64,000 nucleotides of DNA from an uncultured Candidatus Saccharibacteria bacterium. GTDB taxonomy: Bacteria; Patescibacteriota; Minisyncoccia; Phycocordibacterales; UBA9973. Position numbers and translations under genes: made by a program. Numbering within the stretch: position 1 is the stretch's first letter; each line of letters opens with the position of its first letter. The stretch lies in the NCBI GenBank assembly GCA_964398205.1, contig CAYNLU010000002.1, positions 1,004 through 65,003 of the forward strand. Reading direction: 5' to 3'. The notes below the pieces were generated by a model. That model saw only the letters and a program-made list of their open reading frames with translations. It did no database searches and was not told the DNA's origin. Below are positions 1,449-16,834 of this stretch, piece by piece.

Positions 1449-1449
1449 A

Positions 1450-2085
1450 TTACAAAATGTAGCTATCAGTATTAAATCCCTCAGCAACAGCTAATTTAAT
1501 AAACTGCTCTCTAGTTTCAGGAGTTTTCTCGTAATGCATTGGTATGACTTTCCCAATCCTTTTAAATTTCTTTGCAAAGTCAAACGCTTCTTGCGGACCA
1601 AATGTATAGAAAGTTCCAACTGGTAGTAGCGCTACATCTACCTCAAGATTTGTTACATCAATACCAGACTCATAAAACATATCTCCTGCAAAATACACTG
1701 TTTTATTGTCAGCAATAATAAGAAATCCGAAGTTTTCTTTTAGTGGAGCAGAAACATTTGGTCCGTGATCTACATTGAAAAACTGCACTTTGATACTATC
1801 CACCACGATCTCATCGCCAACTTTCACTGATACAATTTCTGAAGTCAAAGCTTCTTCCCCAAGTGTTTCAATACACTCTGCGTTTAAATATAGTTTCTTT
1901 GGAGACAATGCCTTTATTTGTTCAAGAGAGAAGTGGTCACCATGAATATGAGACACTAACATTTCATCTACAGTAATTCCATTTAGTTTTTCAACTGGAG
2001 TTTTGTTCCCAATATCAAAAGCGAGGCGAAAGCCTGCCTCTGTTTCAAGAATAAAACCTGATTGTTCAAATTTAGTGAGTTTCAT
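1450..2085 (-). CDS. MBL-fold metallo-hydrolase
   Basis: 211 aa. HIHGDHFS metal-binding motif (HxHxDH). Confidence 0.7.
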   Translation of the reverse strand: MKLTKFEQSGFILETEAGFRLAFDIGNKTPVEKLNGITVDEMLVSHIHGDHFSLEQIKALSPKKLYLNAECIETLGEEALTSEIVSVKVGDEIVVDSIKVQFFNVDHGPNVSAPLKENFGFLIIADNKTVYFAGDMFYESGIDVTNLEVDVALLPVGTFYTFGPQEAFDFAKKFKRIGKVIPMHYEKTPETREQFIKLAVAEGFNTDSYIL

Positions 2086-2086
2086 A

Positions 2087-2641
2087 TTATTTTATCATTT
2101 CACTTAGTACTGATAATGCTTCAGGTAGTTCTGTAAATCCTGCTGATCCATTCAAATGCTTCCCGTTCGGTATAAGAATAAGTTTTCCATCAAGCTGTCT
2201 TGCTATTTCTTCTGCATCAGACACTGGAACATTTGGATCATTGTCTCCGTGAATTACAGCCACATGATCCACTTTATTTTTCATTACTTCCCAGTTGAAA
2301 TCTGCATGCAAAAAATTAACTATTTTATCATTTGTGTTTTGATGACATGGAGCAGATGCAACGATGACACCTTTGAGATTTGGAGAATCAAAATGTTCAA
2401 GGTATCGAAGAATAGCGGTGCCACCCAAACTGTGACCAACGAGGTAAATATCATCGTTTAAATTTTTATCAACATGTCTTTTTATTTCTTCTAGCCATTC
2501 AGAGAGAATCGGCTCATCAGGATTTTGCATAGAAAGAGCACAAGCATATACATCTTGTTTTTCTAGTTCAGCCATAAGCCAAGGTCGCCAGCCACCGTTG
2601 GGACTTCCTTGAAAACCATGAATTAAGAAAACCTTTTTCAT
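2087..2641 (-). CDS. alpha/beta hydrolase (RBBP9/YdeN-like serine hydrolase)
   Basis: 184 aa. GHSLGG nucleophile-elbow motif. Size typical of YdeN/RBBP9 family. Confidence 0.6.
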   Translation of the reverse strand: MKKVFLIHGFQGSPNGGWRPWLMAELEKQDVYACALSMQNPDEPILSEWLEEIKRHVDKNLNDDIYLVGHSLGGTAILRYLEHFDSPNLKGVIVASAPCHQNTNDKIVNFLHADFNWEVMKNKVDHVAVIHGDNDPNVPVSDAEEIARQLDGKLILIPNGKHLNGSAGFTELPEALSVLSEMIK

Positions 2642-2676: not shown

Positions 2677-4005
2677 TTATGCTACCAATGTAATTTTCTT
2701 CTCTTTCAGTATCAATCTACTCCTCAAATGTCCCATCAGTTCACGCTTCTCCAGTGGCGTTCCTTCTCTCAGCACATACTTTGCATACTCTCTGGTATTA
2801 ACATCATCCTCGTTGATTGAGTATTTGGGTGTACCTTTAGTTGCAAGTCTCTGGAGTCGATTGAATCTTTTAATCTCTTCTTCTAGCTTCATTCTCATTC
2901 CCAGTTCGTTGATACTGACTTTGTCTATGACTTTAAATAGTTCCTCGATCAGTTCTTCCTCTCGTATATACTTGTTCTTGCAATTCCTGTCTCTCGCCTT
3001 TGAGCAGGAATAGTAGACGTACTTGGCGGTCGTACCATCTTTGAGTTCCTTGTACTTCTCTTGTGCCGTTATTCCTGATTCGCACATTCCACAGGTGAAG
3101 AGTTTGGTAAATGCGAACTCTCGATTTTCTCTCACGATTCTGTCTCGCTTTAATTGCTCTTGGGCTTTTTCAAACAGCTCTTGAGTAATGATCGGCGTAT
3201 GGCTTCCTTGATACCAGTTATCGCTATTCCGTGGATACTCGAATGGTCCATAATAGATGGGCATATTGAAGATACGATAAACCCCTGAGAGCGTCAGGGG
3301 TTTATTTCCTCGGGTATAGAAGTTCAGATCAAATCGTAACCAATTGTATACTTTTCTTCCGCTCCACTTTTCGTACACCACTTTCTCAAACATTTTCTTG
3401 ATGATTGGTGCTCGTTCTGGATCAATTACTATTTGGCACTTCCTATCCATGAGTTTCTGATTCAGGTATCCAAGCGGTGCCATTCCAGGCCATAATCCCA
3501 TCTCCACTCTCGTTCGCAATCCTCGCTTCACATTGATGCCTCGATTATCATTCTCAAGTTTCGCTTGGCTTCCTAATATCATGAGGAGAAATTTCTCATT
3601 CGGATTGTTTCCAAATGTCTGCCCGAAAGTTCTTATCATATGCAATTTACCTGCATCCATCAGGTCTACGATTTTTCCAAGGTCACCTGCATTTCTTGAA
3701 ATACGATCTGGTGCCCAAGTCAGTATTGCATTGAACTTCTCTTGCTTGAGTTCCTCAATGATTTCGTTGAAGACTGGTCGCTGTCCTGTTTCCTTTGCAC
3801 TATGACTCTCACGCTTCATGGTGACCACTTCAAGCCCCTCACGATCTGCCAACTGGAGCATTTCGCTTATCTGGCTATCAATACTCAATACTTGCCGTTC
3901 CTCAGATTCTGTCGATTTTCTTGCGTACAGGCAGTATTTGATCTTCTTTGGTTCGATTACTACTTTCGCTACACCTTGCTCTAGGTTTGGGTTTTCTATC
4001 TTCAT
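2677..4005 (-). mobile_element. large serine recombinase (resolvase/integrase)
   Basis: 442 aa. N-terminal resolvase catalytic domain (YARKSTESEERQ...SIDSQ), central recombinase domain, C-terminal Cys cluster (CGMCESG...YYSCSKARDRNC). Confidence 0.85.
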
Positions 4006-4030: not shown

Positions 4031-4393
4031 CTAGGAGTCTAGTGCGTCCCGAGTGCTATCTGTTGGTAACTCAAAGGGGTCAAAATCCTCAATTTCTTTC
4101 CTGAGCCTGTCCATGTTTTTTAGAACTGTTTTATATATTTTTGATATTTCCTTTATCTTTTTTTCATCTAAATTCTCATCACACTCTTCTAAAAAATCGA
4201 CGAGATCATCGTCGATAAAGGATGCCAGTGATATGTATGCCCCGACCAACAACTGTATCCTTTCCTTGATGGCTCGTTTCAAATGCTTTTTTGATTCAGG
4301 AAGAGAAGAGATACGGTTAAAAGGCGTACTTCCGTTCGGTTCGTGATATTTGAAATGCTTGCTGGCATCTATTATTGCTTCAATGTCTTCCAC
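4031..4393 (-). CDS. hypothetical acidic protein
   Basis: 120-aa ORF between recombinase and helicase. No motif recognised. Confidence 0.3.
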   Translation of the reverse strand: MEDIEAIIDASKHFKYHEPNGSTPFNRISSLPESKKHLKRAIKERIQLLVGAYISLASFIDDDLVDFLEECDENLDEKKIKEISKIYKTVLKNMDRLRKEIEDFDPFELPTDSTRDALDS

Positions 4394-4515: not shown

Positions 4516-7500
4516 ATGACTACAGTAAAAAACCGTCCAAATGAAACTTCTGCCGAAGTTTTGAGTCCAAATATAAAAGTTTTGAGAGAGTACGAAAAAA
4601 AGATTGTTGATCTTACTCGACGAAACCGTCTCTTGAAATACCCCGCAAAAGCTCGGGCTATTTCTTTTAAAATGAACATCTCTGATTTTGAAGAGAGTTT
4701 CGGTTCTGCTGAAGAAATAGAGATTGAGTTTCCGCATAAAGCAATTCTTCGCGAAGAGGAAGAAGTGGTAGAGGATGCTGAAAAGGATTCATCTATTCCG
4801 CCTACAGACGTTCAAGGTAAAAAGCTTATAACGATGCTTCAAGCTTTGAGGCTTGATAGTAAAAAGAAATTTGAAGAACATGGACTCCATACTCTATACC
4901 TCACGATTGGTCGTGTGCGTTGGAAAGAACCAGGAAATGGTCGTGGCTCAGAAGGAGCACTAGAAGAAAAAGACTATGACTACGATGCCCCACTTCTTCT
5001 TATTCCTGTTTCAGTTGAAGAAACAAAATCTACGCCAAAGAAAACAATAATCAGAACGTATTTAGAAGCGAATGATATTGTTTTTAATCCTGTACTACTT
5101 TTACTCTCTGAATTGGAATACGGGGTTCAGATTTCTGGGATACCCTCATTTGAAGAAATCACCAGTCTCTCTGGGGCATTCGATTCACTTGTCAAAATAT
5201 TAAAAAAATCATTTGCAGAATCTAAAATTAAAAATGATATCACTGACGATATTCGTATCGGTCAGTACTCTTTTTATGGTCAACAAATATACGAAGATCT
5301 AAGAAATAATGAAGAAGCAATTTGTGAACATGAATTTGTTGATGGTCTTATCGGCAAAGGTTCTATCATTCAAGAAGGTTTACCGTCAGACTCACAACCC
5401 GATGATCTTTTGGCTGTTGAAGAAGACTTCACTGTTCTAGATGCCGATGTAAGCCAGATGCGAGTTATTCAGAAAGCTGTTCAAGGTAACAGTCTTGTTG
5501 TTCAAGGTCCTCCTGGAACAGGAAAAAGTCAGACCATCGTTAACCTTGTTTCTAACTTACTTGCTCGTGGCAAAAAAGTACTCGTTGTCTGTGAAAAACA
5601 GGTTGCTCTTGAAGTTGTTTTTAAACGTCTCAAAGATAAAGGACTCGACAAGCTTTGTCTGCCACTTTTTTATCAGAACGCTGATAAAAAAACATTCGCG
5701 AAATCTGTTATAAACGATAGAGACTTTCTAATTGAAGCCTATGGACATAGTAGTTCTAGTGATGATACGGCTCTTGAATTGCGTGAAGGTGTCCATACAA
5801 AACTATGGAATTACGCATGTTCACTGGCTACTGTTGTTGAACCACTCAAGCGATCAGTTCAATGGGTTCACGGAGAGCTTGCTAAAGCACAAGCACTTAA
5901 CTCTGATCGGGCAATACCATGGGGAGAAAGTAATCCACTAGTTATTACTGAGGACACGTATCGGAAAATTCTTACGATTTTGGAAGCTGTTTCTCCAGTC
6001 CTCCACAAGATTTCTGATCCAAAATTTTCAGCATGGAGTCAAATACAAAAAGAAAATTTCTCTCCTGACTTCGCAAGTAGAGTTCGAGTCGTACTTGAGG
6101 ATGCTCATTCTGCGATTGCCGAACTTAATTCTCTACAACCCGAATCAATAGGCTTGGATACAATTCAAGGTCTGCAAAAGAATATGGAGACTGTTGAAAA
6201 ATTGGCACAGTTTGAAACTAGCTTATTGCCAATACCACTACGAGATGAAGTCATTCTTAGTGCTGGAATTCAGATTTTAAAACAAACGGTTGAAGTTATT
6301 TCTGCCTATCAAAAACTTACCGAGAGTTTTGGGGATATCTATAAAGTGCCTACTGTATGGTCTTTGAGTAAGCTAGATGTCCAGTCCGTAAATGACGAGC
6401 GTGAAATTAAAGAGATTCGCACCGCACTCGATTCTGCATCTAAAATTGAAGCGATCCTGTCTTCCTTATATTCAAATGTAGAGGCTTGCAAGAACGACGA
6501 TCTCTTGAATTTACCTATTGCTGAATTAATTCATTATCGAAATATTTTAATTCTCGATCCACTTATTATTGGAATAAAGGATTGGAGCGAAGCATCATCA
6601 TTACAGGCTTCTCTTGGATCACTTACAACATTACAAGCTATTTACCGTAAACTTGAAGAAGCAAATGCGGTATTTGAAAAATGGGCAATTATTCGTGAAA
6701 ACTTAAATAAAGAAGATGTCGAAAAAGTATTTACTGAATTTAATAAAAGGTATCATAAATACCTACATTTTTTCTCCCGTGATTATAGGGCAACTAAAGC
6801 GATAGTTTCAGATTGGTGCAACCTCAATACACCGAAAAAGTATGTAGATATTAATCAAGTTGTTTCTGCTGTACGCGACAGCCAAAACCTTGAAGAAAAA
6901 TTAGGTATTCTTCTTGCTCAATTTAACGAGAAGTACATTGTTTCAGGTAAATCAATAACGGTACACGAAATTCCAATTCTTTCAGGTAGTGCAAAGAATC
7001 TCAGCGAATGGATGCGTCAAGAAAATAAGAGCGAACTCCCTAGTCATCTAAAGCAGGTTGTCGAGAAAAACAGTAGTCCTCGTGCAACGAAAGCTTTTAG
7101 CGATTCGTTAAAAGATTTGGAGGTAGTACTCAGTAGTCATTGGAGCATATTCAGTGTATTTTCTGATCTTGATCGTGTCTCAATTGCAAATGTCGCTTCT
7201 AAATTTGGAGAGCTGACAGAAAATGCTCAGAGCATAATTTCTCTCGAAGAGATTGTGGAAAATTTCTTGATAAAGAATGATTCTTCTCGAACTTTTGGTT
7301 CTCTCAAGAAAGATGTCCAGAATCTTAACCAACTCAAAACATGTTTAGACAAGATTGATCCAGATATTTTCAGCTTATTTACAGAAGAGGAAAATCCCGC
7401 CTCGCTTATAAATAAACGTAAGTCTCTGGAAAAGAATATCCTTGAACTTGAGGATCTCCTCTGGCATATTTCAAAATTGTCTAATTATCAAGGTGATATT

Positions 7501-9417
7501 TCACTAAGTGATTCGATACAATTAACCACAGAAGCAAAAGCAAAACTTGATAAATGGAAGTCAGCACTCACAAATTACGAAAAGCACGCTTCGGCTTTAA
7601 ATAAGCTGTTTGAGAATGAGCAAAGTTTAGCAATCCTTGAACCTCTAAAAATTGAGACATTTCAGGAAAAATTATCGGAAATGATCCAAGACCAAGAAGG
7701 TCTTGAAGCATGGATGGAATATCGTCGTTATTCGCACCAGATGAAAGATCTAGGTTATTCTTGGTTTTTGGAATCAGTTAAGGGTAGCGATATAAAAAAT
7801 CCAGCAGCTTTGTTTGCTGAATCACTTTGGAATTCTTGGCTTGAAAATTACTATCGTACCGATCCTGATCTGCGAGATTTCAATGTAAGTGAACACAAGA
7901 AAACTATCGAAGAGTTCCGCAAACTTGAGAAGCGTGTACTTGATGTTAATGCGAAACGAATACTCCAAAGAATTGCTCCTGAGATTAAAAAAGTGAAAGA
8001 GCGTCGTGGTGAGCTTGAACGCTTCTTGCTTCACCAAAGCCAACTCCAAAAGCAACACAAACCCGTTCGACAGGTTGTTATGAAGTGTACTTCTCATATA
8101 CAGCAATATAAGCCTTGCTGGATGATGAGTCCTTTGACACTGAGTTCATATATTCCATATGGCTCACTCGATTTCGATACGGTTATTTTCGATGAAGCAT
8201 CACAGATGCGTGTTGAACATGCTCTTGGTGCAATTGCTCGTGGAAAGCAAGTCATTATTTTTGGTGACGAACATCAACTTCCTCCAACATCTTTCTTTGA
8301 CGTAGCTTCAGATTCAGATGACGATTCTGAGGATGTCGAAGAACAAGATTATGAAAGTATCCTTCATGCCGCACGAACCGTTCTTCCTGAATCAAGCGAT
8401 TCTCTCTTATATCACTATCGCAGTAAGTACGAAGATCTTATTGCGTTCTCAAACTGTGAAGTGTATAAGGATCGCCTTATTACTTTCCCAAATCCAGATC
8501 ATTCAAGTCGTGGGGTTCAGTTCGAGTATGTTGAGGACGGTATATTCGATGGTGGGATCAAAAAGGAAGGTCATGCGGGAACCCGTCGTAATGATATCGA
8601 AGCAAAACGCGTCGTTGAAATGTGTGCCCAGTCTGCGACTGACTACCCAGACAAGTCCATTGGTGTGATTGCATTTAGTAAATCTCAAGAGGTGGGTATC
8701 AGAGACGCGATGATCGAGTTTCTTAAAACACACCCTGAACTTCAGGAAAAATTAAACGAAGATCAAGACGGTAGCGATGCGTTTTTCATTAAGAATCTTG
8801 AATCTGTACAAGGAGATGAACGAGATATTATCGTACTCTCTATTGGATATGGTAAAGATAAAAATGGCAACTTCTTCAATCGTTTTGGTCCTATCAATAG
8901 CGTCACTGGCTACAGACGTTTGAACGTAGCAGTAACTCGTGCAAAAGAAAAGTTGATTTGCGTATCTTCTTTTAAATCGACTGAAATGAAAGCTGGCGAA
9001 ACTTCGCGAGGTGCAAAAATGCTACAGAAATATTTGGATTATGCTGAAAATGGCGTTAAGACTCTCGACGGTAGCCGTCTTGTCGTTGCAGGAGAGGATG
9101 TTGAAGCTGATAGTCCATTTGAACTGGAGGTTAAACGAGCACTTGAGGAACGCGGTTATGAAGTTAGAAAACAGATTGGTGTATCAGGTTTTAAAATCGA
9201 CTTGGCAATCATCAATCCTAAGACTGGGACTGACTACATTCTTGGAATCGAATGCGATGGTGCATCGTATCACTCTTCATACTCTGCTCGAGTAAATGAT
9301 CGTTTGAGAGAAGATATTCTTAGAAGACTCGGTTGGGATATATATCGTGTTTGGTCTCAACATTGGATTTCACACAAGGAAGCAATAATCGAGGATATTA
9401 TCAAAACAATCTCATAA
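4516..9417 (+). CDS. DUF4011-type Upf1/DNA2-like SF1 helicase with C-terminal Vsr/DUF559-like endonuclease domain (HheA-like)
   Basis: 1633 aa. Walker A GPPGTGKSQT, Walker B VIFDEASQM, motif VI LNVAVTRAKEKLI. C-terminal ~110 aa (ELEVKRALEERGY...KIDLAI...GIECDGASYHS...R) has the restriction-endonuclease-like DUF559/Vsr signature. Confidence 0.8.
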   Translation: MTTVKNRPNETSAEVLSPNIKVLREYEKKIVDLTRRNRLLKYPAKARAISFKMNISDFEESFGSAEEIEIEFPHKAILREEEEVVEDAEKDSSIPPTDVQGKKLITMLQALRLDSKKKFEEHGLHTLYLTIGRVRWKEPGNGRGSEGALEEKDYDYDAPLLLIPVSVEETKSTPKKTIIRTYLEANDIVFNPVLLLLSELEYGVQISGIPSFEEITSLSGAFDSLVKILKKSFAESKIKNDITDDIRIGQYSFYGQQIYEDLRNNEEAICEHEFVDGLIGKGSIIQEGLPSDSQPDDLLAVEEDFTVLDADVSQMRVIQKAVQGNSLVVQGPPGTGKSQTIVNLVSNLLARGKKVLVVCEKQVALEVVFKRLKDKGLDKLCLPLFYQNADKKTFAKSVINDRDFLIEAYGHSSSSDDTALELREGVHTKLWNYACSLATVVEPLKRSVQWVHGELAKAQALNSDRAIPWGESNPLVITEDTYRKILTILEAVSPVLHKISDPKFSAWSQIQKENFSPDFASRVRVVLEDAHSAIAELNSLQPESIGLDTIQGLQKNMETVEKLAQFETSLLPIPLRDEVILSAGIQILKQTVEVISAYQKLTESFGDIYKVPTVWSLSKLDVQSVNDEREIKEIRTALDSASKIEAILSSLYSNVEACKNDDLLNLPIAELIHYRNILILDPLIIGIKDWSEASSLQASLGSLTTLQAIYRKLEEANAVFEKWAIIRENLNKEDVEKVFTEFNKRYHKYLHFFSRDYRATKAIVSDWCNLNTPKKYVDINQVVSAVRDSQNLEEKLGILLAQFNEKYIVSGKSITVHEIPILSGSAKNLSEWMRQENKSELPSHLKQVVEKNSSPRATKAFSDSLKDLEVVLSSHWSIFSVFSDLDRVSIANVASKFGELTENAQSIISLEEIVENFLIKNDSSRTFGSLKKDVQNLNQLKTCLDKIDPDIFSLFTEEENPASLINKRKSLEKNILELEDLLWHISKLSNYQGDISLSDSIQLTTEAKAKLDKWKSALTNYEKHASALNKLFENEQSLAILEPLKIETFQEKLSEMIQDQEGLEAWMEYRRYSHQMKDLGYSWFLESVKGSDIKNPAALFAESLWNSWLENYYRTDPDLRDFNVSEHKKTIEEFRKLEKRVLDVNAKRILQRIAPEIKKVKERRGELERFLLHQSQLQKQHKPVRQVVMKCTSHIQQYKPCWMMSPLTLSSYIPYGSLDFDTVIFDEASQMRVEHALGAIARGKQVIIFGDEHQLPPTSFFDVASDSDDDSEDVEEQDYESILHAARTVLPESSDSLLYHYRSKYEDLIAFSNCEVYKDRLITFPNPDHSSRGVQFEYVEDGIFDGGIKKEGHAGTRRNDIEAKRVVEMCAQSATDYPDKSIGVIAFSKSQEVGIRDAMIEFLKTHPELQEKLNEDQDGSDAFFIKNLESVQGDERDIIVLSIGYGKDKNGNFFNRFGPINSVTGYRRLNVAVTRAKEKLICVSSFKSTEMKAGETSRGAKMLQKYLDYAENGVKTLDGSRLVVAGEDVEADSPFELEVKRALEERGYEVRKQIGVSGFKIDLAIINPKTGTDYILGIECDGASYHSSYSARVNDRLREDILRRLGWDIYRVWSQHWISHKEAIIEDIIKTIS

Positions 9418-9431
9418 ACTTCTCAGGTAAT

Positions 9432-10931
9432 ATGCCTCTTATATCAAAAACAATATTTATTGACTCACGTAACTGTGCTAAAAATACTTGGCTCAAACTA
9501 CACAAACCTGAGCTTCTGGAGAATTTCGAACTTTCCGAATTTGAAAAGCAACTTATCGAGCAAGGTAATGAAGTAGAGTTATGTGCCCGTGGTCTTTTTC
9601 CTAATGGCGTTGAAGTTATAAGTAAAGGTGAAAATGCATGTCTTGAAACAAGAAAATTGATGGAGGCAAAAACTCCAGCTATTTTTCAAGCTACATTTAT
9701 TGCTGATGGCTTTATTGCTCGAAATGACGTTTTGGTTTATGAACCAAAAAATGATTGCTGGGATCTATATGAAATTAAAGGAACAAATTCTCTCAAAGAG
9801 GGTTCTGACGAGAGAAGTCATGTTGAAGATCTTACATTTCAAGCAATAGTCTTAAAACGCTCAGGTGTTAACCTAGGACGTTCATTTTTAATTCACTTGA
9901 ATAAAGAATACGTACGAACTAGCGGTCTTGATATTGACCAGTTATTTACAATTGAAGATCTTACTGAAACCGTAGCTCAAAGATTTGATGAAATGAGTAT
10001 TTTAATGGAAGGGTCACGTGAGTTTCTCAACCAAGAAACAGAACCTGCGAGTGGTTGTGATTGTCATTATCTAGGACGAAGTAGACATTGTGCCACATTT
10101 CAGTACTCCCATCCCGAAGTGCCAGAATATTCAGTTCATGATCTTTCACGTATTGGAAGTAGTAAAAAGAAGATGGAGTTTTTTGTCGATAATAGTATCT
10201 ACAGTCTTGATGATATCCCTACTGATTATGAGTTGTCTCCCATTCAAACCAACCAATTACAAGCTCATCGAACTAAGACTCCAACTATCGATTTGAGTGA
10301 AGTCAGAAATCAGCTTAGTGTCTTGGAATTTCCTCTATATTTCTTAGATTACGAGACATATGCTCCAGCGATTCCACAGTTTGTGAATTATAGCCCTTAT
10401 AAGCGGATACCATTCCAATTTTCACTCCATATTTTACGTGAACCAAATGGCGGAGTTGAGCATGTTGATTTTCTTCATCCTGAACGTACCGATCCATCAG
10501 AATTGGTCGCGCAACTTTTGACTAAGCATATCCATCCCAAAGGTACAGTTATTTCGTGGAACAAGTCGTTTGAGAAAGGAGTTAATTCTGACATTGCAGA
10601 GCGTCTTCCTGAACATCGAGAAGCAATGGAACGTATAAATAATCAAATGTATGATTTGAAGGATATTTTTTCAAAGCAGTATTACGTTCATCCAGATTTT
10701 CAAGGAAGTGCCTCGATCAAAAAAGTATTGCCAGCCTTAATTCCTGACTTAAACTATAGTGACTTAGTTATCCATGAAGGCGGTCAAGCCTCTGAACAGT
10801 GGTGGTTCATGGTTGCACCAGACACAAGCAAGGAAGAACTTGAGGATATTTCTAAAAATCTTAAAATTTATTGTGGTCTTGATACTTATGCTATGTACGC
10901 AATTTGGAAGCACCTTTATGAAAAAATCTAG
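9432..10931 (+). CDS. DUF2779-like two-domain nuclease: N-terminal RecB/Cas4-like PD-(D/E)xK, C-terminal DnaQ-like 3'-5' exonuclease
   Basis: Start moved to ATG 9432 (MPLISK...), 14 nt after the helicase stop. DVLVYEP...DLYEIKG (D...ExK), Cys cluster CDCHYLGRSRHC, then FLDYETY (DxE) and YCGLDTYAMY (Yx3D). Confidence 0.55.
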   Translation: MPLISKTIFIDSRNCAKNTWLKLHKPELLENFELSEFEKQLIEQGNEVELCARGLFPNGVEVISKGENACLETRKLMEAKTPAIFQATFIADGFIARNDVLVYEPKNDCWDLYEIKGTNSLKEGSDERSHVEDLTFQAIVLKRSGVNLGRSFLIHLNKEYVRTSGLDIDQLFTIEDLTETVAQRFDEMSILMEGSREFLNQETEPASGCDCHYLGRSRHCATFQYSHPEVPEYSVHDLSRIGSSKKKMEFFVDNSIYSLDDIPTDYELSPIQTNQLQAHRTKTPTIDLSEVRNQLSVLEFPLYFLDYETYAPAIPQFVNYSPYKRIPFQFSLHILREPNGGVEHVDFLHPERTDPSELVAQLLTKHIHPKGTVISWNKSFEKGVNSDIAERLPEHREAMERINNQMYDLKDIFSKQYYVHPDFQGSASIKKVLPALIPDLNYSDLVIHEGGQASEQWWFMVAPDTSKEELEDISKNLKIYCGLDTYAMYAIWKHLYEKI

Positions 10932-11213
10932 CTGTTGGTAACCGCACTACACAATAATCTCAATGTAAGCTACAGTACAAAAATACCCTTGAAAATGGTA
11001 TAATTCGTTTACAATTTAATAATAGACCTAACCCCTCAATTTATTGAGGATATGGTCGCCAAATCCGTCCAAAGTAAAGAACTCCTAGTCAGAGTCTACT
11101 TTGGACGGTCATATCTGGAAACGGGTATGGGTATACCTCACGGGGTATATCGGATCTGGCTGGGAGCTTTTTGCTACCTATACGATCCTTCATAACAAAA
11201 CCGTCCAAAGTTT

Positions 11214-11675
11214 ATGAATAAAAAATCACATAGTGAAGAAGTATGGGGCAAAGTCCTCAGTGCACACGAAGAAGTTAAGTACGAGTTCTCAGTCGGAAAG
11301 CAGTATATCAATACATACATTATCATCTGGGCGATCATCAGTTTGCCGTTCGTCTTTGCTGTCGTAGGAATTTTCATATTCCTCATCGCATTCTTGTATT
11401 TGAAGTTCTACTTGCCTAAGGCAAACATCTACGGATTTACCGACAAGCGAGTACTGATCCATCGTGGATTTTTCTCAACTAACTTAATCAGCGTTGACTA
11501 TAAGCAGATCACTGATGTTACTGTCCGTGAATCATTTTTAGATAAGACATTCACAAAAAGCGGACAGTTGTTCATCAACACCGCAGGAACAAGTAAAGAA
11601 GAAATCGTCTTGAGCCACATCGCTCATCCGTACGAGGTTAAAAAGAAGCTCGACGAGTTGAGGGATAATCACTAA
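11214..11675 (+). CDS. bacterial PH-domain (bPH_2/YdbT-like) membrane protein
   Basis: 153 aa. Two hydrophobic helices, then GFTDKRVLIHRGFFSTNLISVDYKQITDVTV...GQLFINTAG typical of bPH_2. Confidence 0.5.
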   Translation: MNKKSHSEEVWGKVLSAHEEVKYEFSVGKQYINTYIIIWAIISLPFVFAVVGIFIFLIAFLYLKFYLPKANIYGFTDKRVLIHRGFFSTNLISVDYKQITDVTVRESFLDKTFTKSGQLFINTAGTSKEEIVLSHIAHPYEVKKKLDELRDNH

Positions 11676-11687
11676 TTGATTCTGAAA

Positions 11688-13169
11688 TTACAATAGTTTT
11701 TTAAACTCAGCAGAATATAATTCTGTTATTTCAGCTACGCTGTCGTCGGCATCAAGATTAAATGTAAAGTTAGCCTCGATAATATCGAGAACATAGAGCA
11801 ATGATTTCTCGGTGTATAGATGCTCTGTTACGGTATCTATTAGTTTACTGAGACTATGATTTAGTAGATCAACTTCTTCTTTGTATCGTTCAAAAAACTC
11901 ACTATAGTTCTCGGTCATATCAATATCAAATATAGTCGATGGTTTTTGAGCCAGATTTTTAAATTCGCAGAGTGTCTTATAGTTCTTAACTGGACTTGCG
12001 TGCTTCTTTGTAAAGAGAAACATATTTGCAAGAGGTAGCAGTACTTCAATCTGTTCTTTATACTCCTGCACAAAATTAACCTCTTCTTTGCAGGTATATA
12101 AATTAGTCCCAGTTATTATCTCTACCACTCTTGGCATTCCCAAGAAATCTTTTTCAAGATTTTGTTTTACCAACTTGCCAGTATCAAATAGCTTTTGAAA
12201 ATACTTTTTGGACTTTTGCAGTTCTGTATACCAAGCCATGAACAAATCCTTGTGACTCTTTTTAGTATTACCATTCCATGTGTCAAAACGCTCACTCATA
12301 CTGAGTGGTGAATATTCATTTACGAATAAGCCATCATCTAGCCACCGAGATAGAGTTTCTTTGACCAATAGCTCAATACTCATGTTTTTACTTTTTGCAT
12401 ATTCTTCCACTATCGACAATATGTTTTCTTCGGTAGCATCGTGTGAAATATGTGTATCGTAAGCTAATTTAAAAAATACATCTTTTATTGGTAGCTCCGC
12501 AAAAAAGTGATGGAGTAAAAACCCGCCTTTTTCCGCCATGGTATTTCTTATTTTCTTCGCTCCGTCATAGTACATACAGGAATAGATACGACTGACAATC
12601 AAGTCTTTCTCCTCCTTACTGAGTTTGTTGCTATCCTTGAATCGTTCATAGAGAAAGACCTGGTCTTCCAAGTATTTGGAATCACTAGCAACCGTATCGT
12701 CAAGGAGAAGTAGGTCTTCTTGTGTTTCTTTTGGTAGGTTATTAAATGTGAATATGTGTAACAGTTTTTGATACTCAAAATAAGTAGATTCTGTAAGCAG
12801 TTTGATACTTTCTTCCTCTGGAATATCTTTTGTGAATTGTTGCATTGCTACCCCCTGAAAGCTTCTTGTACCAGAAAGAAAACTATCAAGCACTCTCTGG
12901 TTTCGTAACAGTGATAGCTCTGACCGATACAAAAACATCTGAGCATCCATTTTCATAGAATTCTCTAGTTGAACAATCTTTATGTATCGGTTGTATTCCT
13001 TTACTTCGAGGGTACGAGGACTCCATGCTTGAGTCAAAACATAGATATCAGAATCAGATAGTGCACCTTTGCCGTTCTTTTCTCTGTAAATATCGTTATG
13101 GACAAGTGCAGTCACTCGCTCAAGCGGTGTGATATTTGATCTTCTAAGTAAATCACTTAAGTTTTTCAT
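11688..13169 (-). CDS. hypothetical 493-aa protein, last gene of the methyltransferase operon
   Basis: No catalytic motif recognised. Tightly packed with upstream genes (2-nt gap). Confidence 0.4.
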   Translation of the reverse strand: MKNLSDLLRRSNITPLERVTALVHNDIYREKNGKGALSDSDIYVLTQAWSPRTLEVKEYNRYIKIVQLENSMKMDAQMFLYRSELSLLRNQRVLDSFLSGTRSFQGVAMQQFTKDIPEEESIKLLTESTYFEYQKLLHIFTFNNLPKETQEDLLLLDDTVASDSKYLEDQVFLYERFKDSNKLSKEEKDLIVSRIYSCMYYDGAKKIRNTMAEKGGFLLHHFFAELPIKDVFFKLAYDTHISHDATEENILSIVEEYAKSKNMSIELLVKETLSRWLDDGLFVNEYSPLSMSERFDTWNGNTKKSHKDLFMAWYTELQKSKKYFQKLFDTGKLVKQNLEKDFLGMPRVVEIITGTNLYTCKEEVNFVQEYKEQIEVLLPLANMFLFTKKHASPVKNYKTLCEFKNLAQKPSTIFDIDMTENYSEFFERYKEEVDLLNHSLSKLIDTVTEHLYTEKSLLYVLDIIEANFTFNLDADDSVAEITELYSAEFKKLL

Positions 13170-13170
13170 A

Positions 13171-13368
13171 TCATCTGTTTTTTCTTAATGCGTTTTCCAA
13201 GAACTCGACCCGTTCTTTAAGTTCTGTGTTGGCTATATTCTTTGAAAGCGTAGAAGTAAGCTTGGCAATCATAGATGCCTGCTTGAGTGACATTTCCTTA
13301 TTCATCACTTTGCGGATAGTATCCGAAAGAATATTATTTATTTCTTCTAGGTTAATTGGTTTAGTCAT
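13171..13368 (-). CDS. hypothetical small protein (65 aa)
   Basis: ORF within operon, 1-nt spacing to neighbours. Confidence 0.35.
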   Translation of the reverse strand: MTKPINLEEINNILSDTIRKVMNKEMSLKQASMIAKLTSTLSKNIANTELKERVEFLENALRKNR

Positions 13369-13369
13369 A

Positions 13370-13744
13370 CTAGTTATTTTCTACGATTTCAAACCAAGCC
13401 CTTACTTCATGAGCCTTGCCACTTTTAATAATGTTTTTGTAGAGTGCAAAAATGACATTCGGAGTTAGTTTTCTTGCCCATGAGTTGATGTCTTTGACTA
13501 GTCCATCTTTCTCAAGTCTCTTATTCCAATCAGTGAGCGTGCCAGTATCAATCTTGTATATTTTTGAGAATTCAAGCTGTGTCTTTATCGCAAGCAATTC
13601 AAATACTGACTCTTCTTCAACACCGAACTTTTCGAGTGCTACTCTTGGTTGCCCTTTAAGAAACGAAGGAAGGGACTTCCAAAGAGCATAGGTTTCGTAG
13701 ACCTGCTTTTTATATGGATCTTTAGAAAAATCTTCTTCCTGCAT
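13370..13744 (-). CDS. small HTH-containing protein (phage terminase-small-subunit-like / DNA-binding)
   Basis: 124 aa. Putative helix-turn-helix around KIYKIDTGTLTDWNKR. Confidence 0.35.
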   Translation of the reverse strand: MQEEDFSKDPYKKQVYETYALWKSLPSFLKGQPRVALEKFGVEEESVFELLAIKTQLEFSKIYKIDTGTLTDWNKRLEKDGLVKDINSWARKLTPNVIFALYKNIIKSGKAHEVRAWFEIVENN

Positions 13745-13751
13745 ATATCAC

Positions 13752-14501
13752 TTAAAGCTTTACTGCTGTCTCGCCAGTAAGCTTTTCAAGCCTTGTGAGA
13801 GATGTTTGCACATACGCCTCATCAAGCTCTATGCCGATACACTTTCGACCCAAGTGTGCACAAGCGACAGCAGTTGAACCACTTCCCAGAAAGGGGTCAT
13901 ATACAACATCACCAACTCTCGTTGAGTTAGGAATTATTTTTCTCAATAACCCAATTGGTTTTTGCGTAGGATGAAGGTTAGATTTATGTGGTCTAGGATG
14001 ATAGATAACATTTCTTGCTTTAGACTGTTCCATTTTGTGTTTACCAAACCATCCATAGGCAATGAGTTCGTACATAGACAAATAGTCTTTTCTGCTCATG
14101 ACTGGTTGATTTTTCAGCCAAATAATCATCTGACTGTAATAGAAACCAGCGGACTTCATACCCAAGCGTAAACTTGGAAACATTAGATCGGCATTAAAGA
14201 TATAGACCGTGTTGTACTCTTCTAGGTGCGGGATAGTCGCACCTAAATACTTACTAGTAAATTGCTCGTATTCTTCTTCTGATTGTAGGTGGTCATTGGC
14301 AATAACTTTTTCATTCTTAACGCCGAGTTTTGAGAATCCTATTTTATTTTCTACATAAGCAACGCCATACGGAGGATCAGTCACAACCGCTCGTATTTTA
14401 TTGTTTCCTATAACTTTTGCGACAAAGGCATTGTCTAGAGAATCGCCACAACCGATAATGTGATCACCAATCTTAAAAATATCTCCTTTATTTATTTTCA
14501 T
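13752..14501 (-). CDS. DNA methyltransferase, beta-class N6-adenine/N4-cytosine (PF01555-like)
   Basis: 249 aa. DPPYGVAY (motif IV) precedes DPFLGSGSTAVAC (motif I). Confidence 0.8.
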   Translation of the reverse strand: MKINKGDIFKIGDHIIGCGDSLDNAFVAKVIGNNKIRAVVTDPPYGVAYVENKIGFSKLGVKNEKVIANDHLQSEEEYEQFTSKYLGATIPHLEEYNTVYIFNADLMFPSLRLGMKSAGFYYSQMIIWLKNQPVMSRKDYLSMYELIAYGWFGKHKMEQSKARNVIYHPRPHKSNLHPTQKPIGLLRKIIPNSTRVGDVVYDPFLGSGSTAVACAHLGRKCIGIELDEAYVQTSLTRLEKLTGETAVKL

Positions 14502-15756
14502 AGATTTTCTTCGCCTTAAGGTTGGTAAACTTTTCCCAACGATCTATAACAATAGTCGCAAAGAGTAGATCTTTTTCGACCCCACGCCACACACGATTTA
14601 ATTCCTCACATGCAATAAGGTCACTACCACTACCAGCGAAGCCAGAAAAGATGATGTGCCCAGGTGCAGAGCATCGCTTGAAGGGCTTTTCATTTAAAGA
14701 AATCGGTTTTTGTGTTGGGTGGAGATAGTTTTGAGTGTTATCTCTTTTAACAAGCCAAAGGTCTATCATGTCTTGCAATTCATCCAAGACCTGATTACCA
14801 GTTGTTACTTCTTGATTAAGAATTTCATTTGCATTCCTGAAGTTTGGATTTAGATATGGCTTACCAAGTGTGCCGTATGTACATGGTTCATAGAGCCTGT
14901 TCCAAGCAATTTTAGGAGTGCAGTTCTGATTCGATTTTATCCAAAGACAAACTCTTCTTTTCTTGATCTGATATTTATCGTATAGAGACTGCGTTAATCC
15001 AATGCTGTTTGGGTCTGACCAGTAAAAGAAGTGTGAGTCTGGCTTAGCAAACTTTTTAGCTGTCTCAATACTTTTACTAATGAATTCAGAGTACTCATCC
15101 TCGCTCTTATTATCTTTGTATTCTCCACCATACTTTCCTCCGTATTCCCAAGAAATATTATAGGGCGGATCACAGAAGACAATATCCGCTAGATCATCTT
15201 TCATGAGTTCTTTGACTTGATCTTCGTTGGTAGAGTCGCCAACTAAAAGGCGGTGCTTCCCGAGTTCCCAAACTTCTCCTAAATTCACTTTTGGTGCCAC
15301 TGTTTCTTTAATGGCTTTCTCAACATCAAAATCATCTTCAACAAGATCCACGTCATCAAATAGATTCTGTAATTCTTCATCTCCAAAACCAACATCAAGA
15401 AGCATGTCCATATCGAACTCTTTTAGTAGTTCTTCATCCCACGACCCAGTATTCTTATTAAGTCTCAAGTTGAGTTCTTTTTCTTCTTCGAGGGTTAGTT
15501 CTCGTGAAGGAATCATGCACTCAATTTCTTCAATACCAAGATCCGCATACACTTTTATGCGTTGTTCACCTCCAATAATAATATTGGCTCTTGAGCCGAT
15601 ATTAAGAACAATAGGCACGACCGTTCCAAATTCCTTAACAGATTTTTGCAAGTCTCTCTTTTCACTCTCACTCAACTTTCTCGGGTTGTATCCGTTATTA
15701 ATTAGGTCTACCAACTTGCGAGTAGTGCTAGACCATGTACGCTTTTGCTTAGCCAT
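14488..15756 (-). CDS. ParB-like nuclease domain fused to beta-class DNA methyltransferase
   Basis: 422 aa. N-terminal ParB/Srx-like (PIVLN...IIGGEQR), then DPPYN and FSGFAGSGSD MTase motifs. Confidence 0.8.
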   Translation of the reverse strand: MAKQKRTWSSTTRKLVDLINNGYNPRKLSESEKRDLQKSVKEFGTVVPIVLNIGSRANIIIGGEQRIKVYADLGIEEIECMIPSRELTLEEEKELNLRLNKNTGSWDEELLKEFDMDMLLDVGFGDEELQNLFDDVDLVEDDFDVEKAIKETVAPKVNLGEVWELGKHRLLVGDSTNEDQVKELMKDDLADIVFCDPPYNISWEYGGKYGGEYKDNKSEDEYSEFISKSIETAKKFAKPDSHFFYWSDPNSIGLTQSLYDKYQIKKRRVCLWIKSNQNCTPKIAWNRLYEPCTYGTLGKPYLNPNFRNANEILNQEVTTGNQVLDELQDMIDLWLVKRDNTQNYLHPTQKPISLNEKPFKRCSAPGHIIFSGFAGSGSDLIACEELNRVWRGVEKDLLFATIVIDRWEKFTNLKAKKIYENK

Positions 15757-15873
15757 AGGGTTTTTATTCAGAAGAGGTTCTTAGCTGCTCTTCTACCCTT
15801 ATTCGTCATTGAATGACAAAATGACAATTTCTTTTTACTTCCTCAAAATGAGTAGCGAGAAAATCTTTAATAC

Positions 15874-15908
15874 AAAAGACCTTTTGCTTGAACGAGCAAA
15901 AGGTCTTT
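15874..15908. terminator. bidirectional rho-independent terminator
   Basis: Perfect 14-bp stem aaagaccttttgc/gcaaaaggtcttt with 7-nt loop, T/A runs on both sides. Sits between the ParB-MTase start and the stop of the 15933-16688 gene. Confidence 0.6.
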
Positions 15909-15932
15909 ATTTCGTCATTTTATATGAAATGA

Positions 15933-16688
15933 CTATTTGTCAGCTCTGAGAGAAAACAGGGCTTTATACCCATACCTTTTAGTGTAATGAGAAATTGGGC
16001 TAGACTTCATACCAAAAAACTTCTTTAAACCTTCATTGAGTTCGTATTTAACATTTCTGCCAAATCTTTTGTCCCATTCTGATTTTGTTAGCGAGCCATC
16101 ATATTCTGCCATTATTCGAAGTAGTGCCCATTTATAATCTGGGTTGTTTGTCTTAGTATTCATAAAACCCATATCTTTGTAATCAAACTTTTGTGGCTTC
16201 ATTCCTGGGTAAGAAACCTTAACAAGGTGTCCATCCAAAAACTTTATATCCAATGCTTCCCATGTAGCATTTTGGGGAAGTAGGTATGATGCAACAACAA
16301 CGCTGCTTTCTTTTTTAGCTGATCCAACATCTAAATCTTCAGGGTTAACAATTCTAACCTCCTGAACCATTCTTGCAGGAATAATATAATCATCTTTATC
16401 TATTGTTGGGAATGAGAATCCAGCCAAAACATCCAACGAGGGTCTTACAGATTCAAATGCGGAATTAGCCATCCCAATGCTTTTTTTCAATGATTCTCTC
16501 ATTGGTTCAAAAGCTTTGAGAGTCTTCTCATGTGCCTCAAAAACAGCCTTCAACGGCGAAACAAGCCTTTCTGCTGTAGCAGGGTCATATCCATCCTTTA
16601 TTGCTTGTTGATATACTAATTCGCCTACGGTCATAGTTTGTATTATATCAAAAATTGGCATTTGTTGGCATTTGAGCTTGCGACCCAC
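15933..16688 (-). CDS. hypothetical 251-aa protein
   Basis: ORF. Weak PD-(D/E)xK-like pattern (D...EALDIK), not convincing. Confidence 0.35.
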   Translation of the reverse strand: MGRKLKCQQMPIFDIIQTMTVGELVYQQAIKDGYDPATAERLVSPLKAVFEAHEKTLKAFEPMRESLKKSIGMANSAFESVRPSLDVLAGFSFPTIDKDDYIIPARMVQEVRIVNPEDLDVGSAKKESSVVVASYLLPQNATWEALDIKFLDGHLVKVSYPGMKPQKFDYKDMGFMNTKTNNPDYKWALLRIMAEYDGSLTKSEWDKRFGRNVKYELNEGLKKFFGMKSSPISHYTKRYGYKALFSLRADK

Positions 16689-16834
16689 AAAGCTAAACTT
16701 CTTCAGTCAGAACGTGCTAGAATAGCCTTACAAGGGTTGAACCCACGGGTACCATACCCGAGTACACCGCCACAACAATCTAGTGTCGGAAGACCCGAGT
16801 ACCTAAATTCTCAAAGTTAAGCTAAAATATATAC

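What the first reader, a model, noticed from the sequence alone, without database searches (positions are those of the whole stretch)
11688..16688. Tightly packed five-gene operon: ParB-nuclease-MTase fusion, second beta-class MTase and three unknown proteins
Five minus-strand genes are separated by -14 to +7 nt, so they are one transcription unit. They are a ParB-like domain fused to a DPPY/FxGxGS methyltransferase, a second DPPY methyltransferase, a 124-aa HTH-like protein, a 65-aa protein and a 493-aa protein with no recognisable domain. Two orphan-looking methyltransferases co-transcribed with a large unknown protein suggest either a phage-derived anti-restriction/packaging module or a methylation-dependent system whose effector is the unrecognised 493-aa or neighbouring 251-aa protein. 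The 251-aa upstream gene (15933-16688) is separated by a strong bidirectional terminator and shows a weak D...E-x-K pattern.
Basis: inference. Interest (0 to 1): 0.7.

Follow-up and report, generated by a model that had tools for sequence, protein, structure and literature searches.

The report
Core operon of a CPR mobile island
The five tightly packed genes are the conserved core of a widespread, apparently undescribed family of small phage-derived DNA islands that insert next to tRNA-Ser genes in ultra-small (CPR/Patescibacteria) bacteria and carry anti-phage defence genes. In this branch an unknown 493-aa protein sits where sister islands carry a phage DNA-packaging enzyme.

Summary
In detail: five minus-strand genes (11688-15756) are spaced -14 to +7 nt. 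They encode a ParB-N/beta-class MTase fusion, a second DPPY MTase, and three proteins with no family match (124, 65 and 493 aa).

The operon is not a stand-alone methylation system. The same five genes, in the same order and sizes, recur in more than 45 CPR/Patescibacteria loci.

Each copy lies between a sharply defined, conserved element end (GC|GGTGTACTCGGGTATGGTACCC, window 16770 downward) and a same-strand large serine recombinase (window 2677-4005). Variable cargo, mostly defence systems, lies in between. Where the far end is visible, it abuts the 3' end of a tRNA-Ser gene.

The upstream gene (251 aa here) and the operator-like DNA in front of the operon are swapped together, like an immunity cassette.

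Sister elements share the same end motif, MTase pair and recombinase, but carry true TerS and TerL exactly where this lineage has p124-p65-p493. None of them has capsid, portal or tail genes.

p493 has a confident, mostly helical predicted structure that matches no solved or viral structure. It is not a terminase.

Best reading: this is the backbone operon of a phage-derived, satellite-like integrative element. The packaging or hijack role of p124-p65-p493 is inferred, not shown.

The parts
14488..15756 (-). ParB-N domain fused to a beta-class N6A/N4C DNA methyltransferase (422 aa); first gene of the operon
   Evidence: Pfam PF02195 and PF01555, phrog_498 E 3e-85. Full-length homologues at about 31% identity in 233 phage records. 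64-97% identical in related CPR loci.
13752..14501 (-). Second beta-class DPPY DNA methyltransferase (249 aa); overlaps the first by 14 nt
   Evidence: PF01555 E 5e-33, PADLOC MTase_II. 73-95% identical across loci.
13370..13744 (-). p124: very conserved helix-turn-helix protein, remotely related to the HTH_Tnp_1_2 / small-terminase-type HTH
   Evidence: 231 homologues at 62-95% identity. HTH_28 weak hits in 22 of 38 members. hhalign gives 96% probability (E 2e-9) to an L072 131-aa protein that itself hits PF13022 (30.7 bits, above cut-off) and TerS PHROGs. There is no direct similarity to the sister elements' TerS.
13171..13368 (-). p65: small basic helical protein, 1 nt from both neighbours
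   Evidence: Conserved in all loci. Only weak hits to phrog_8384, of unknown function (8 of 17 members, best E 2.8e-4).
11688..13169 (-). p493: acidic, mostly alpha-helical protein of unknown fold; occupies the position of the large terminase in sister elements
15757..15932 (-). Regulatory spacer: GTCAT..ATGAC inverted repeats, a 14-bp terminator hairpin (about 15880-15913), a putative promoter TTGTCA-N17-GAATAA with the operator GTCATTCAATGAC in its spacer, and a short leader hairpin
   Evidence: Sequence, folding. Conserved only in loci with a p251-type upstream gene, and replaced wholesale where the upstream gene is of another type.
15933..16688 (-). p251: candidate element regulator (swappable 'immunity' gene); own transcription unit
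   Evidence: 45-98% identical homologues in about half of the loci; the rest have unrelated 370-393-aa genes in the same slot. It co-varies with the downstream operator region. No domain hit.
16689..16770 (-). Conserved element end ('head'): GC crossover candidate (16770-16769), the arm GGTGTACTCGGGTATGGTACCC, conserved blocks, the direct repeats AAATGCCAAC/AAATGCCAAT, and an extended -10 promoter for p251
   Evidence: Similarity to about 15 genome loci and 40 metagenome loci starts exactly at GC|GGTGTAC, and the upstream flanks are unrelated. The motif is unique in the window. Promoter at 16671-16642.
16771..16803 (-). Tail-type arm (GGTACTCGGGTCTTCCGACA...GTG) abutting the head; looks like a relic or tandem junction
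   Evidence: Resembles the arms that precede GC|tRNA-Ser or GC|head in other loci. No second recombinase in the window.
11214..11675 (+). Cargo: bacterial PH-domain membrane protein, convergent with p493
   Evidence: PF03703 E 3e-9. Same position in L006, L012 and L036.
11025..11151 (+). LOOT RNA motif (Rfam RF03000) at the backbone/cargo border, directly 5' of the bPH gene
   Evidence: 81 bits against a 46-bit gathering score. Recurs in 12 of 16 related loci and in sister elements.
9333..10931 (+). Cargo: DUF2779 protein
   Evidence: PF11074 E 5e-41.
4516..9417 (+). Cargo: 1633-aa SF1 helicase with a DUF4011 N-terminus and a C-terminal MTES_1575/DUF559 nuclease (Hhe / PDC-S37-type defence candidate)
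   Evidence: Pfam. PADLOC PDC-S37 E 5e-291, Hhe E 5e-151.
4031..4393 (-). p120: acidic small protein just upstream of the recombinase, present in only a few related loci
2677..4005 (-). Large serine recombinase (442 aa) of the element, on the same strand as the operon
   Evidence: Resolvase, Recombinase and Zn_ribbon_recom domains. Best NCBIfam hit is CcrB, below cut-off. 74-98% identical copies lie downstream of the module in more than 20 loci.
1..2641 (-). Tightly packed genes behind the recombinase (Ser hydrolase, MBL-fold, HIT, GrpB-like...). Probably post-recombinase cargo; the true far end of the element is not in the window.
   Evidence: GC 0.35 against about 0.30 for the host. Pfam. 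No tail arm in the window. Cargo sits between the recombinase and the tail in L002 and L020.

Best explanation
The five genes are the conserved backbone operon of a family of small (about 8-20 kb) site-specific integrative elements of CPR/Patescibacteria bacteria. These elements derive from the 'methylase-terminase' start of a temperate phage late operon.

Element layout (shown): conserved end with a recombinase half-site and promoter; a swappable regulator gene with its cognate operator; ParB-MTase; MTase; p124; p65; p493; LOOT RNA and variable cargo, mostly anti-phage systems; a large serine recombinase; a tail arm; then GC joined to the 3' end of a tRNA-Ser gene.

Function (inferred):
- The recombinase integrates and excises the element at a GC crossover.
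- The regulator keeps the operon off until induction.
- The two MTases methylate the element DNA so that it survives restriction in a new host, and possibly mark a packaging site.
- p124 (HTH DNA binder), p65 and p493 together do the job that TerS and TerL do in sister elements. That job is getting element DNA recognised and moved into particles made by a helper phage, or otherwise redirecting a helper's packaging machinery. This would make it a phage-satellite-like life style without capsid genes.
For: - Synteny. The five genes keep the same order and sizes in all 29 loci with sufficient flank, plus L036-L041 and six metagenome loci. This holds even for p493 relatives at only E 1e-18 to 1e-39.
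- Selection. dN/dS is 0-0.17.
- Recombinase. A same-strand large serine recombinase lies 0.2-10 kb downstream in more than 20 loci. In L020 it follows p493 directly.
- Ends. The conserved head begins exactly at GC|GGTGTACTCGGGTATGGTACCC in about 55 loci with unrelated flanks. Tails end in arm-GC-tRNA-Ser 3' end in L002, L004, L020, L039 and L073.
- Island signature. GC is 0.37-0.41 against about 0.30 for the host.
- Cargo differs in every locus: Hhe/PDC-S37, type I and type III R-M, a DGR, Shedu, SNase, GmrSD, and transporters.
- The regulator and operator co-vary.
- Phage precedent. In Streptococcus phage Javan239 the order is ParB-MTase, MTase, small ORFs, TerS, TerL, portal.
- Sister elements have the identical head motif, MTases 40-50% identical and recombinases up to 86-87% identical. 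They carry TerS (PF13022, TerS PHROGs) and TerL (phrog_38 E 1e-77 to 1e-83, Terminase_6C) in the p124-p65-p493 slot, then cargo or the recombinase, and never a portal or capsid gene.
- p124 links to the HTH_Tnp_1_2/TerS-type HTH family through an intermediate.
Against: - No function of p124, p65 or p493 is demonstrated.
- p493 has no similarity to any packaging, structural, replication or transfer protein in sequence or predicted structure.
- p124 is not directly similar to the sister TerS.
- In L072 a p124-like gene coexists with a TerS-like gene, but in the regulator slot. p124 may therefore be a regulator rather than a TerS analogue.
- No replication module was found.
- No p493-type element or head motif occurs in IMG/VR viral contigs.
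- The far end of the window's own element is not resolved.
- It is not fully settled which arm is P and which is B, or whether tail-GC-head junctions are tandem copies, relics or circles.
Confidence: 0.55

Rival explanations
1. p124-p65-p493 (with or without the MTases) is an anti-phage or interference module. It would be a new defence or abortive-infection system that senses or blocks phage packaging, carried as fixed cargo by the element.
For: The elements are loaded with defence systems. Satellites commonly interfere with helper packaging (established knowledge of SaPI Ppi and PICI Rpp). p493 is more divergent (43-97%) than its neighbours (p124 83-100%), as expected in an arms race. Patescibacteria-restricted orphan defence proteins of unknown fold exist, and one system is escaped by a T4 TerL mutation (PMC12366544).
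Against: No PADLOC hit. The module has a fixed position, is translationally coupled and sits under an element-specific repressor/operator cassette. It is replaced as a block by TerS and TerL in sister elements, which argues for a life-cycle function. p493 conservation is uniform along its length, with no hypervariable domain.
Confidence: 0.17
2. A methylation-dependent restriction-like system: the two MTases mark self DNA, and p493 (or p251) is an unrecognised nuclease effector.
For: Two MTases are co-transcribed with unknown proteins. p493 has invariant His/Asp/Glu residues and a TWNG-TK..H motif.
Against: The same MTase pair occurs with TerS and TerL and no p493. Full-length ParB-MTase homologues occur in 233 phage records, and in the phage examined (Javan239) the ParB-MTase and a second MTase lie upstream of TerS and TerL. 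p493 is helical with no nuclease, ATPase or known catalytic fold. p251 is replaced by unrelated genes in half of the loci and co-varies with an operator.
Confidence: 0.07
3. p124-p65-p493 is a maintenance or replication module for the excised circular form, with p493 as a novel initiator or partition-type protein. The element spreads by natural transformation rather than in phage particles.
For: No other replication gene is present. CPR bacteria are thought to be naturally competent (general knowledge, and genetic manipulation of Patescibacteria as cited in PMC12366544). SCC elements, the closest recombinase relatives by NCBIfam, carry their own replication genes.
Confidence: 0.12
4. A decaying prophage remnant with no current function.
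For: Phage-type MTases are present and there are no structural genes.
Against: Hundreds of intact, colinear copies in many CPR lineages, dN/dS 0-0.17, translational coupling, intact ends and recombinase, and actively exchanged modules.
Confidence: 0.03

Closest known systems
Phage-inducible chromosomal islands and other phage satellites (SaPI/PICI, P4, PLE, PICMI)
   Same: Small size (8-20 kb). An integrase at one end and a repressor-type control region. A packaging-related module derived from phages. No capsid, tail or lysis genes. Accessory defence cargo. Site-specific insertion, sometimes in tandem.
   Different: The integrase is a large serine recombinase, not a tyrosine one. No primase/replicase module was detected. 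Two DNA MTases are part of the backbone. The packaging slot holds either TerS and TerL (sisters) or three proteins of unknown fold (this lineage). No helper phage is known, and the host clade is CPR.
Staphylococcal cassette chromosome elements (SCCmec and relatives) with Ccr large serine recombinases
   Same: A large serine recombinase (best NCBIfam hit is CcrB). Insertion at the 3' end of a conserved RNA-related gene. Highly variable cargo next to a conserved core. Tandem or composite arrays and cargo-only derivatives. The transfer route is unknown.
   Different: The recombinase scores far below the Ccr cut-off. The target is tRNA-Ser, not rlmH. The conserved core is MTases plus p124-p65-p493 (or a terminase), not a cch helicase or polymerase.
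Start of the late operon of temperate siphophages (for example Streptococcus phage Javan239): ParB-MTase, second MTase, small ORFs, TerS, TerL, portal
   Same: The same gene order for the first two genes, with full-length ParB-MTase homology of about 31%. An HTH protein and a protein of about 490 aa follow.
   Different: No portal or any structural gene follows. p493 is not a terminase. The module is bounded by a serine recombinase and att-type ends.
Sister CPR elements found here: MTase-MTase-TerS-TerL-(cargo)-serine recombinase (L044, L069, L084-L091)
   Same: An identical head motif. MTases 40-50% identical and recombinases up to 86-87% identical. The same cargo types and the LOOT RNA. The same overall length.
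   Different: They have bona fide TerS and TerL. The window's lineage has p124, p65 and p493 instead. The TerL family is much larger (more than 3,400 proteins against about 200).

Membership tests
Beta-class N6A/N4C DNA methyltransferases (PF01555) | The catalytic motif IV (D/S)PP(Y/F) lies N-terminal to the SAM-binding motif I FxGxG, and the Pfam score is above cut-off | tested here: met
   Both proteins: 115.5 and 69.3 bits against a 26.7-bit cut-off. DPPY comes before FLGSGS / FAGSGS in the sequences. N6A versus N4C, and the target sequence, cannot be determined here.
ParB/Srx N-terminal domain fusion | A ParB_N domain at the N-terminus | tested here: inconclusive
   PF02195 gives 25.3 bits, just under the 26.3 cut-off. 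However, phrog_620, phrog_8071 and phrog_940 (ParB-like/nuclease) hit at E 2e-24 to 2e-13, and ParB_N is precomputed for the homologues.
Large terminase subunit (for p493) | An N-terminal Walker A/B ATPase and a C-terminal RNaseH-like nuclease (Terminase_6C or similar) | tested here: not met
Portal / capsid / other virion proteins (for p493) | Sequence or fold similarity to known virion proteins | tested here: not met
   BFVD best E 0.08, TM < 0.2. No tblastn hit in 50,697 phage records. No p493 relative in IMG/VR.
Small terminase subunit (for p124) | An N-terminal HTH DNA-binding domain of TerS type plus an oligomerisation region, encoded next to TerL | tested here: inconclusive
   An HTH is present. 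There is a transitive link to PF13022 and TerS PHROGs via the L072 protein. There is no direct similarity to the sister TerS, and the AF2 model is poor (pLDDT 55).
Intact prophage | Structural (capsid, portal, tail) and lysis genes between the att sites | tested here: not met
   None in the window element or in any related or sister locus.
Phage satellite of PICI type | Integrase, repressor-controlled region, small size, packaging gene(s), and no structural genes | tested here: met
   Recombinase. Regulator/operator cassette. Size about 8-20 kb. TerS and TerL in sisters. No structural genes.
Phage satellite of PICI type | Own replication module (primase/replicase plus origin) | tested here: not met
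   No such domain in the backbone genes of the window or of related loci.
Phage satellite of PICI type | Induction by, and packaging into particles of, a helper phage | not testable with these tools
   No helper is known. Testing needs virome, VLP or culture data.
Large serine recombinase integrative element | Resolvase catalytic domain, recombinase domain and zinc ribbon. Defined junctions sharing a crossover dinucleotide. A specific target. | tested here: met
   Domains. GC is conserved at head and tail junctions in about 55 loci. The target is the tRNA-Ser 3' end in 5 loci. Recombination activity itself is not testable here.
Restriction-modification or other known defence system (the operon itself) | An MTase with a cognate nuclease or other recognised effector | tested here: not met
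   PADLOC hits only the MTases. No nuclease or ATPase domain in p124, p65, p493 or p251.

The most novel reading that the evidence does not exclude
p124-p65-p493 is a previously unknown, terminase-free machine that gets a mobile element's DNA packaged or transferred, for instance by capturing a helper phage's terminase or procapsid. That would make these islands, together with their TerS/TerL sisters, the first phage satellites of CPR/Patescibacteria bacteria. The LOOT RNA would be a cis element of the same system.
Probability: 0.2. Interest if true: 0.85.

Novelty: new variant of a known kind. Interest (0 to 1): 0.66.

Why it matters
CPR/Patescibacteria make up a large share of bacterial diversity, yet almost nothing is known about their mobile elements, phages or defence. 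The literature read here states that only one phage has been described and that few defence systems have been identified (PMC12366544).

This analysis defines a widespread element family with clear ends, a target (tRNA-Ser) and a serine recombinase. It has a swappable control region and a cargo bay that delivers defence systems across CPR lineages. The family therefore offers:
- a handle for finding defence islands in CPR genomes;
- candidate serine integrases and att sites for genetic tools in these hard-to-manipulate organisms;
- a genomic home for the orphan LOOT RNA motif;
- a well-conserved protein family (p493) with a confident predicted structure, no known fold relative and a defined positional equivalence to TerL, which makes its function directly testable.

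Tried and rejected
- A profile search of 1.84 billion representatives found only the same family. Its distant members also have no Pfam domain.
- The AFDB Foldseek library was unavailable.
- p124 structure prediction gave a low-confidence model (pLDDT 55), so no fold search was run on it. p124 versus the sister TerS by hhalign was negative.
- p65 has no PDB hit and only a weak unknown-function PHROG.
- p251 versus the 370-393-aa upstream genes of other loci showed no real homology at 16-22% identity. These are treated as alternative cassettes.
- The search for the far (tail) end in the window found no tail arm, so the left boundary stays open.
- Literature searches for a prior description of such CPR elements found none, within the limits of the library.
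- The LOOT description is not in the held text of Weinberg 2017.

Full report
**1. Observation**

On the minus strand they are:

| Gene | Coordinates | Spacing to the next gene upstream |
|---|---|---|
| p493 | 11688-13169 | +1 nt |
| p65 | 13171-13368 | +1 nt |
| p124 | 13370-13744 | +7 nt |
| 249-aa MTase | 13752-14501 | 14-nt overlap |
| 422-aa ParB-MTase | 14488-15756 | 176-nt spacer |
| p251 | 15933-16688 | - |

- Both MTases score well above the PF01555 cut-off. In both, DPPY lies ahead of FxGxG, the beta-class order.
- The 422-aa protein carries a ParB_N domain at its N-terminus.
- p493, p65 and p251 have no significant hit in Pfam, PHROGs, NCBIfam or PADLOC.
- p124 has a helix-turn-helix.
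- The spacer holds a 14-bp hairpin with dG about -19 to -21 kcal/mol on either strand.

**2. The operon is part of a larger unit**

- GC content is 0.37-0.41 from about 2 to 17 kb, against about 0.30 for the rest of the window.
- A large serine recombinase lies on the same strand at 2677-4005.
- Between the recombinase and p493 lie four features:
  - a 1633-aa helicase-nuclease that matches the PADLOC models PDC-S37 (E 5e-291) and Hhe;
  - a DUF2779 protein;
  - a LOOT RNA motif;
  - a bacterial PH-domain gene.

**3. Conservation elsewhere**

- p493 has at least 142 full-length homologues at 44-95% identity.
- The 30 genome loci found come from Patescibacteria/CPR MAGs, apart from two records titled only 'bacterium': Paceibacterota, Nomurabacteria, Vogelbacteria and others.
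- L006 (DALYEI010000002.1) is 95-97% identical to the window.
- In every locus with enough flank, ParB-MTase, MTase, p124, p65 and p493 are colinear with the same sizes. This holds even for relatives detectable only by profile.
- A large serine recombinase 74-98% identical to the window's follows on the same strand, 0.2 to 10 kb downstream.
- The DNA in between differs in each locus. It includes type I and type III R-M, a diversity-generating retroelement, Shedu, SNase, GmrSD, ABC transporters and PPDK.
- dN/dS is 0-0.17 for all six genes. dS differs several-fold between neighbouring genes, which indicates recombination between elements.

**4. Element ends**

- Alignment of about 15 genome loci shows that similarity begins abruptly at GC|GGTGTACTCGGGTATGGTACCC (window 16770 downward), with unrelated DNA upstream.
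- An exact-match scan of metagenome contigs found 40 more copies with the same sharp border.
- On the other side, several loci show the recombinase stop, then 110-125 nt or extra cargo, then an arm (GGGTC..CCGATA..N17), then GC joined to the 3' end of a tRNA-Ser gene.
- Some heads are preceded by such an arm instead of host DNA. This is the case in the window itself at 16771-16803, and it suggests tandem insertions, relics or circle junctions.
- A cargo-only cassette with the same ends (L073) and short repeated units carrying 17 nt of the tRNA end (L004) also exist.
- I did not find the tail in the window. The tightly packed genes left of the recombinase (GC 0.35) are probably cargo, as in L002 and L020, and the element probably runs past the window start.

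**5. Control region**

- The gene upstream of the operon comes in at least three unrelated types: p251, about 380 aa, and about 393 aa.
- The 230 nt in front of the ParB-MTase gene changes together with the gene type.
- In p251-type loci this region holds conserved GTCAT..ATGAC inverted repeats. One sits between a TTGTCA -35 box and the -10 box.
- This is the pattern of a repressor with its operator, exchanged as a cassette. I read p251 as the regulator (inference).
- The head promoter with its AAATGCCAA repeats is shared by p251-type and about-380-aa-type loci.

**6. What the module is related to**

- Full-length ParB-MTase homologues occur in 233 phage records.
- In Streptococcus phage Javan239 the order is ParB-MTase, second MTase, small ORFs, TerS, TerL, portal.
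- Among the loci found through the head motif, L044 and L069 have the same MTase pair (40-50% identity) followed by different genes:
  - a 143-162-aa protein that hits PF13022 and TerS PHROGs;
  - a 487-519-aa protein that hits phrog_38 terminase large subunit (E 1e-77 to 1e-83) and Terminase_6C.
- This TerL family has more than 3,400 members, and the named sources are Patescibacteria.
- In a 1-Mb CPR genome, in other MAGs and in IMG/VR contigs, its neighbourhood is always MTase-MTase-TerS-TerL-(cargo)-serine recombinase, with no portal, capsid or tail gene.
- Recombinases of these sisters are up to 86-87% identical to the window's.
- The same backbone therefore carries either TerS and TerL, or p124-p65-p493, in the same slot.

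**7. The three unknown proteins**

p493:
- It gives a confident AF2 model (pLDDT 85.8, pTM 0.78), mostly helical with long helices and two small hairpins.
- Foldseek against viral models returns nothing.
- There is no sequence hit in PDB chains, phage genomes or viral contigs. hhalign against the sister TerL is negative.
- Conservation is even along its length, and the protein is acidic (pI 5.3).

p124:
- It is extremely conserved, at 83-100% identity among elements whose p493 is only 43-64% identical.
- It matches an L072 protein (hhalign 96% probability) that belongs to PF13022.
- It is not similar to the sister TerS. In L072 the p124-like gene sits in the regulator slot.

p65:
- It shows only a weak, recurrent link to a phage family of unknown function.

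**8. Interpretation**

Shown:
- An integrative element family with defined ends, a serine recombinase and a tRNA-Ser target.
- A regulator cassette, a conserved five-gene operon and variable defence cargo.
- Phage ancestry of the MTase part.
- Positional replacement of TerS and TerL by p124-p65-p493.

Inferred:
- The MTases protect the element's DNA after transfer, or mark it for packaging.
- p124-p65-p493 serves DNA recognition and packaging, or helper hijacking. This would make the elements satellite-like.

I give this combined reading 0.55. The rivals are:

| Rival | Confidence |
|---|---|
| Interference or defence module | 0.17 |
| Replication or maintenance module | 0.12 |
| R-M-like system with p493 as effector | 0.07 |
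| Dead remnant | 0.03 |

**9. Comparison with known systems and novelty**

- The elements work like PICI-type satellites and like SCC cassettes in different respects, but fail membership tests for both. They have no replication module, no tyrosine integrase and no Ccr-level recombinase score.
- They are not prophages and not a recognised defence system.
- Searches of the held literature found no description of such CPR elements. That library is incomplete, so prior description cannot be excluded.
- I rate the finding as a new variant of a known kind (a phage-derived site-specific island) that contains a protein family of unknown fold.

Noticed in passing
window 11025-11151 (+); also L009, L010, L012, L015, L016, L021, L022, L033, L036, L037, L038, L041, L072, L084, L085: The LOOT RNA motif (Rfam RF03000) sits in the window and in 11 of 15 related p493-type loci scanned, as well as in a distant p493-type locus (L041), in two TerL-type sister elements (L084, L085) and in L072. 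In almost all of these loci it lies at the border between backbone and cargo; where the neighbouring gene was examined, it is directly 5' of a single variable gene (bPH, SNase, a 305-aa or a 314-aa protein). This gives the motif a genomic home and suggests a cis leader or an element-specific signal.
   Followed up: partly
window 16771-16803: Immediately outside the element head there is a tail-type arm (GGTACTCGGGTCTTCCGACA...). The junction therefore looks like tail-GC-head, although the window holds no second recombinase. The same configuration occurs in L047, L069, L073, L077 and L079. It could be a relic of an earlier element, a tandem junction, or a sign that B and P arms are alike.
   Followed up: partly
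L073 577-7870: A 7.3-kb cassette has the same head motif and a tail-GC-tRNA-Ser junction, but no recombinase, MTases or p493. It encodes CapA-like and surface proteins, and looks like a non-autonomous, cargo-only derivative.
   Followed up: partly
L004 5566-5950: Two units of about 170 nt each start with 17 nt of the tRNA-Ser 3' end and end in ...GAATCATT-GC, just before the element head. They are miniature att-bounded repeats of unknown origin.
   Followed up: no
window 1-2641 (-): Tightly packed genes lie behind the recombinase: Ser hydrolase, MBL-fold hydrolase, a 114-aa protein, HIT-like, a 108-aa protein, and a GrpB-like protein cut by the window edge. GC is 0.35. They are probably post-recombinase cargo, so the element likely extends beyond the window start.
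   Followed up: partly
window 4516-10931 (+): A 1633-aa DUF4011 / SF1 helicase / MTES_1575 nuclease protein (PADLOC PDC-S37 and Hhe) overlaps by 85 nt with a DUF2779 protein. This is a likely two-gene defence cargo, conserved at 96-99% in L006.
   Followed up: partly
window 15757-15800 (-) and homologous positions in p251-type loci: A conserved short hairpin (AGAAGAG..CTCTTCT) sits in the leader just before the ParB-MTase start codon. Its stability is modest (dG -11 kcal/mol, z -1.8). It could be a second operator or a translational control element.
   Followed up: no
window versus L006, genes 11688-16688: Synonymous divergence differs strongly between adjacent genes of the same two elements: dS is 0.025 for p65, 0.09 for p124 and p493, and 0.44-0.53 for the MTases. 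Likewise p493 is only 64% identical in L010, where all its neighbours are 93-97% identical. Recombination between elements appears frequent.
   Followed up: partly
L037 4704-6017, L054, L062, L081, L044: Some elements carry a second, divergent serine recombinase (36-49% identity) on the opposite strand, directly inside the head, with its stop about 130 nt from the GC junction.
   Followed up: no
window 16835-18906 (+): A NADAR-domain protein and a photolyase flank the element on the host side. GC drops to about 0.30 from here on.
   Followed up: no
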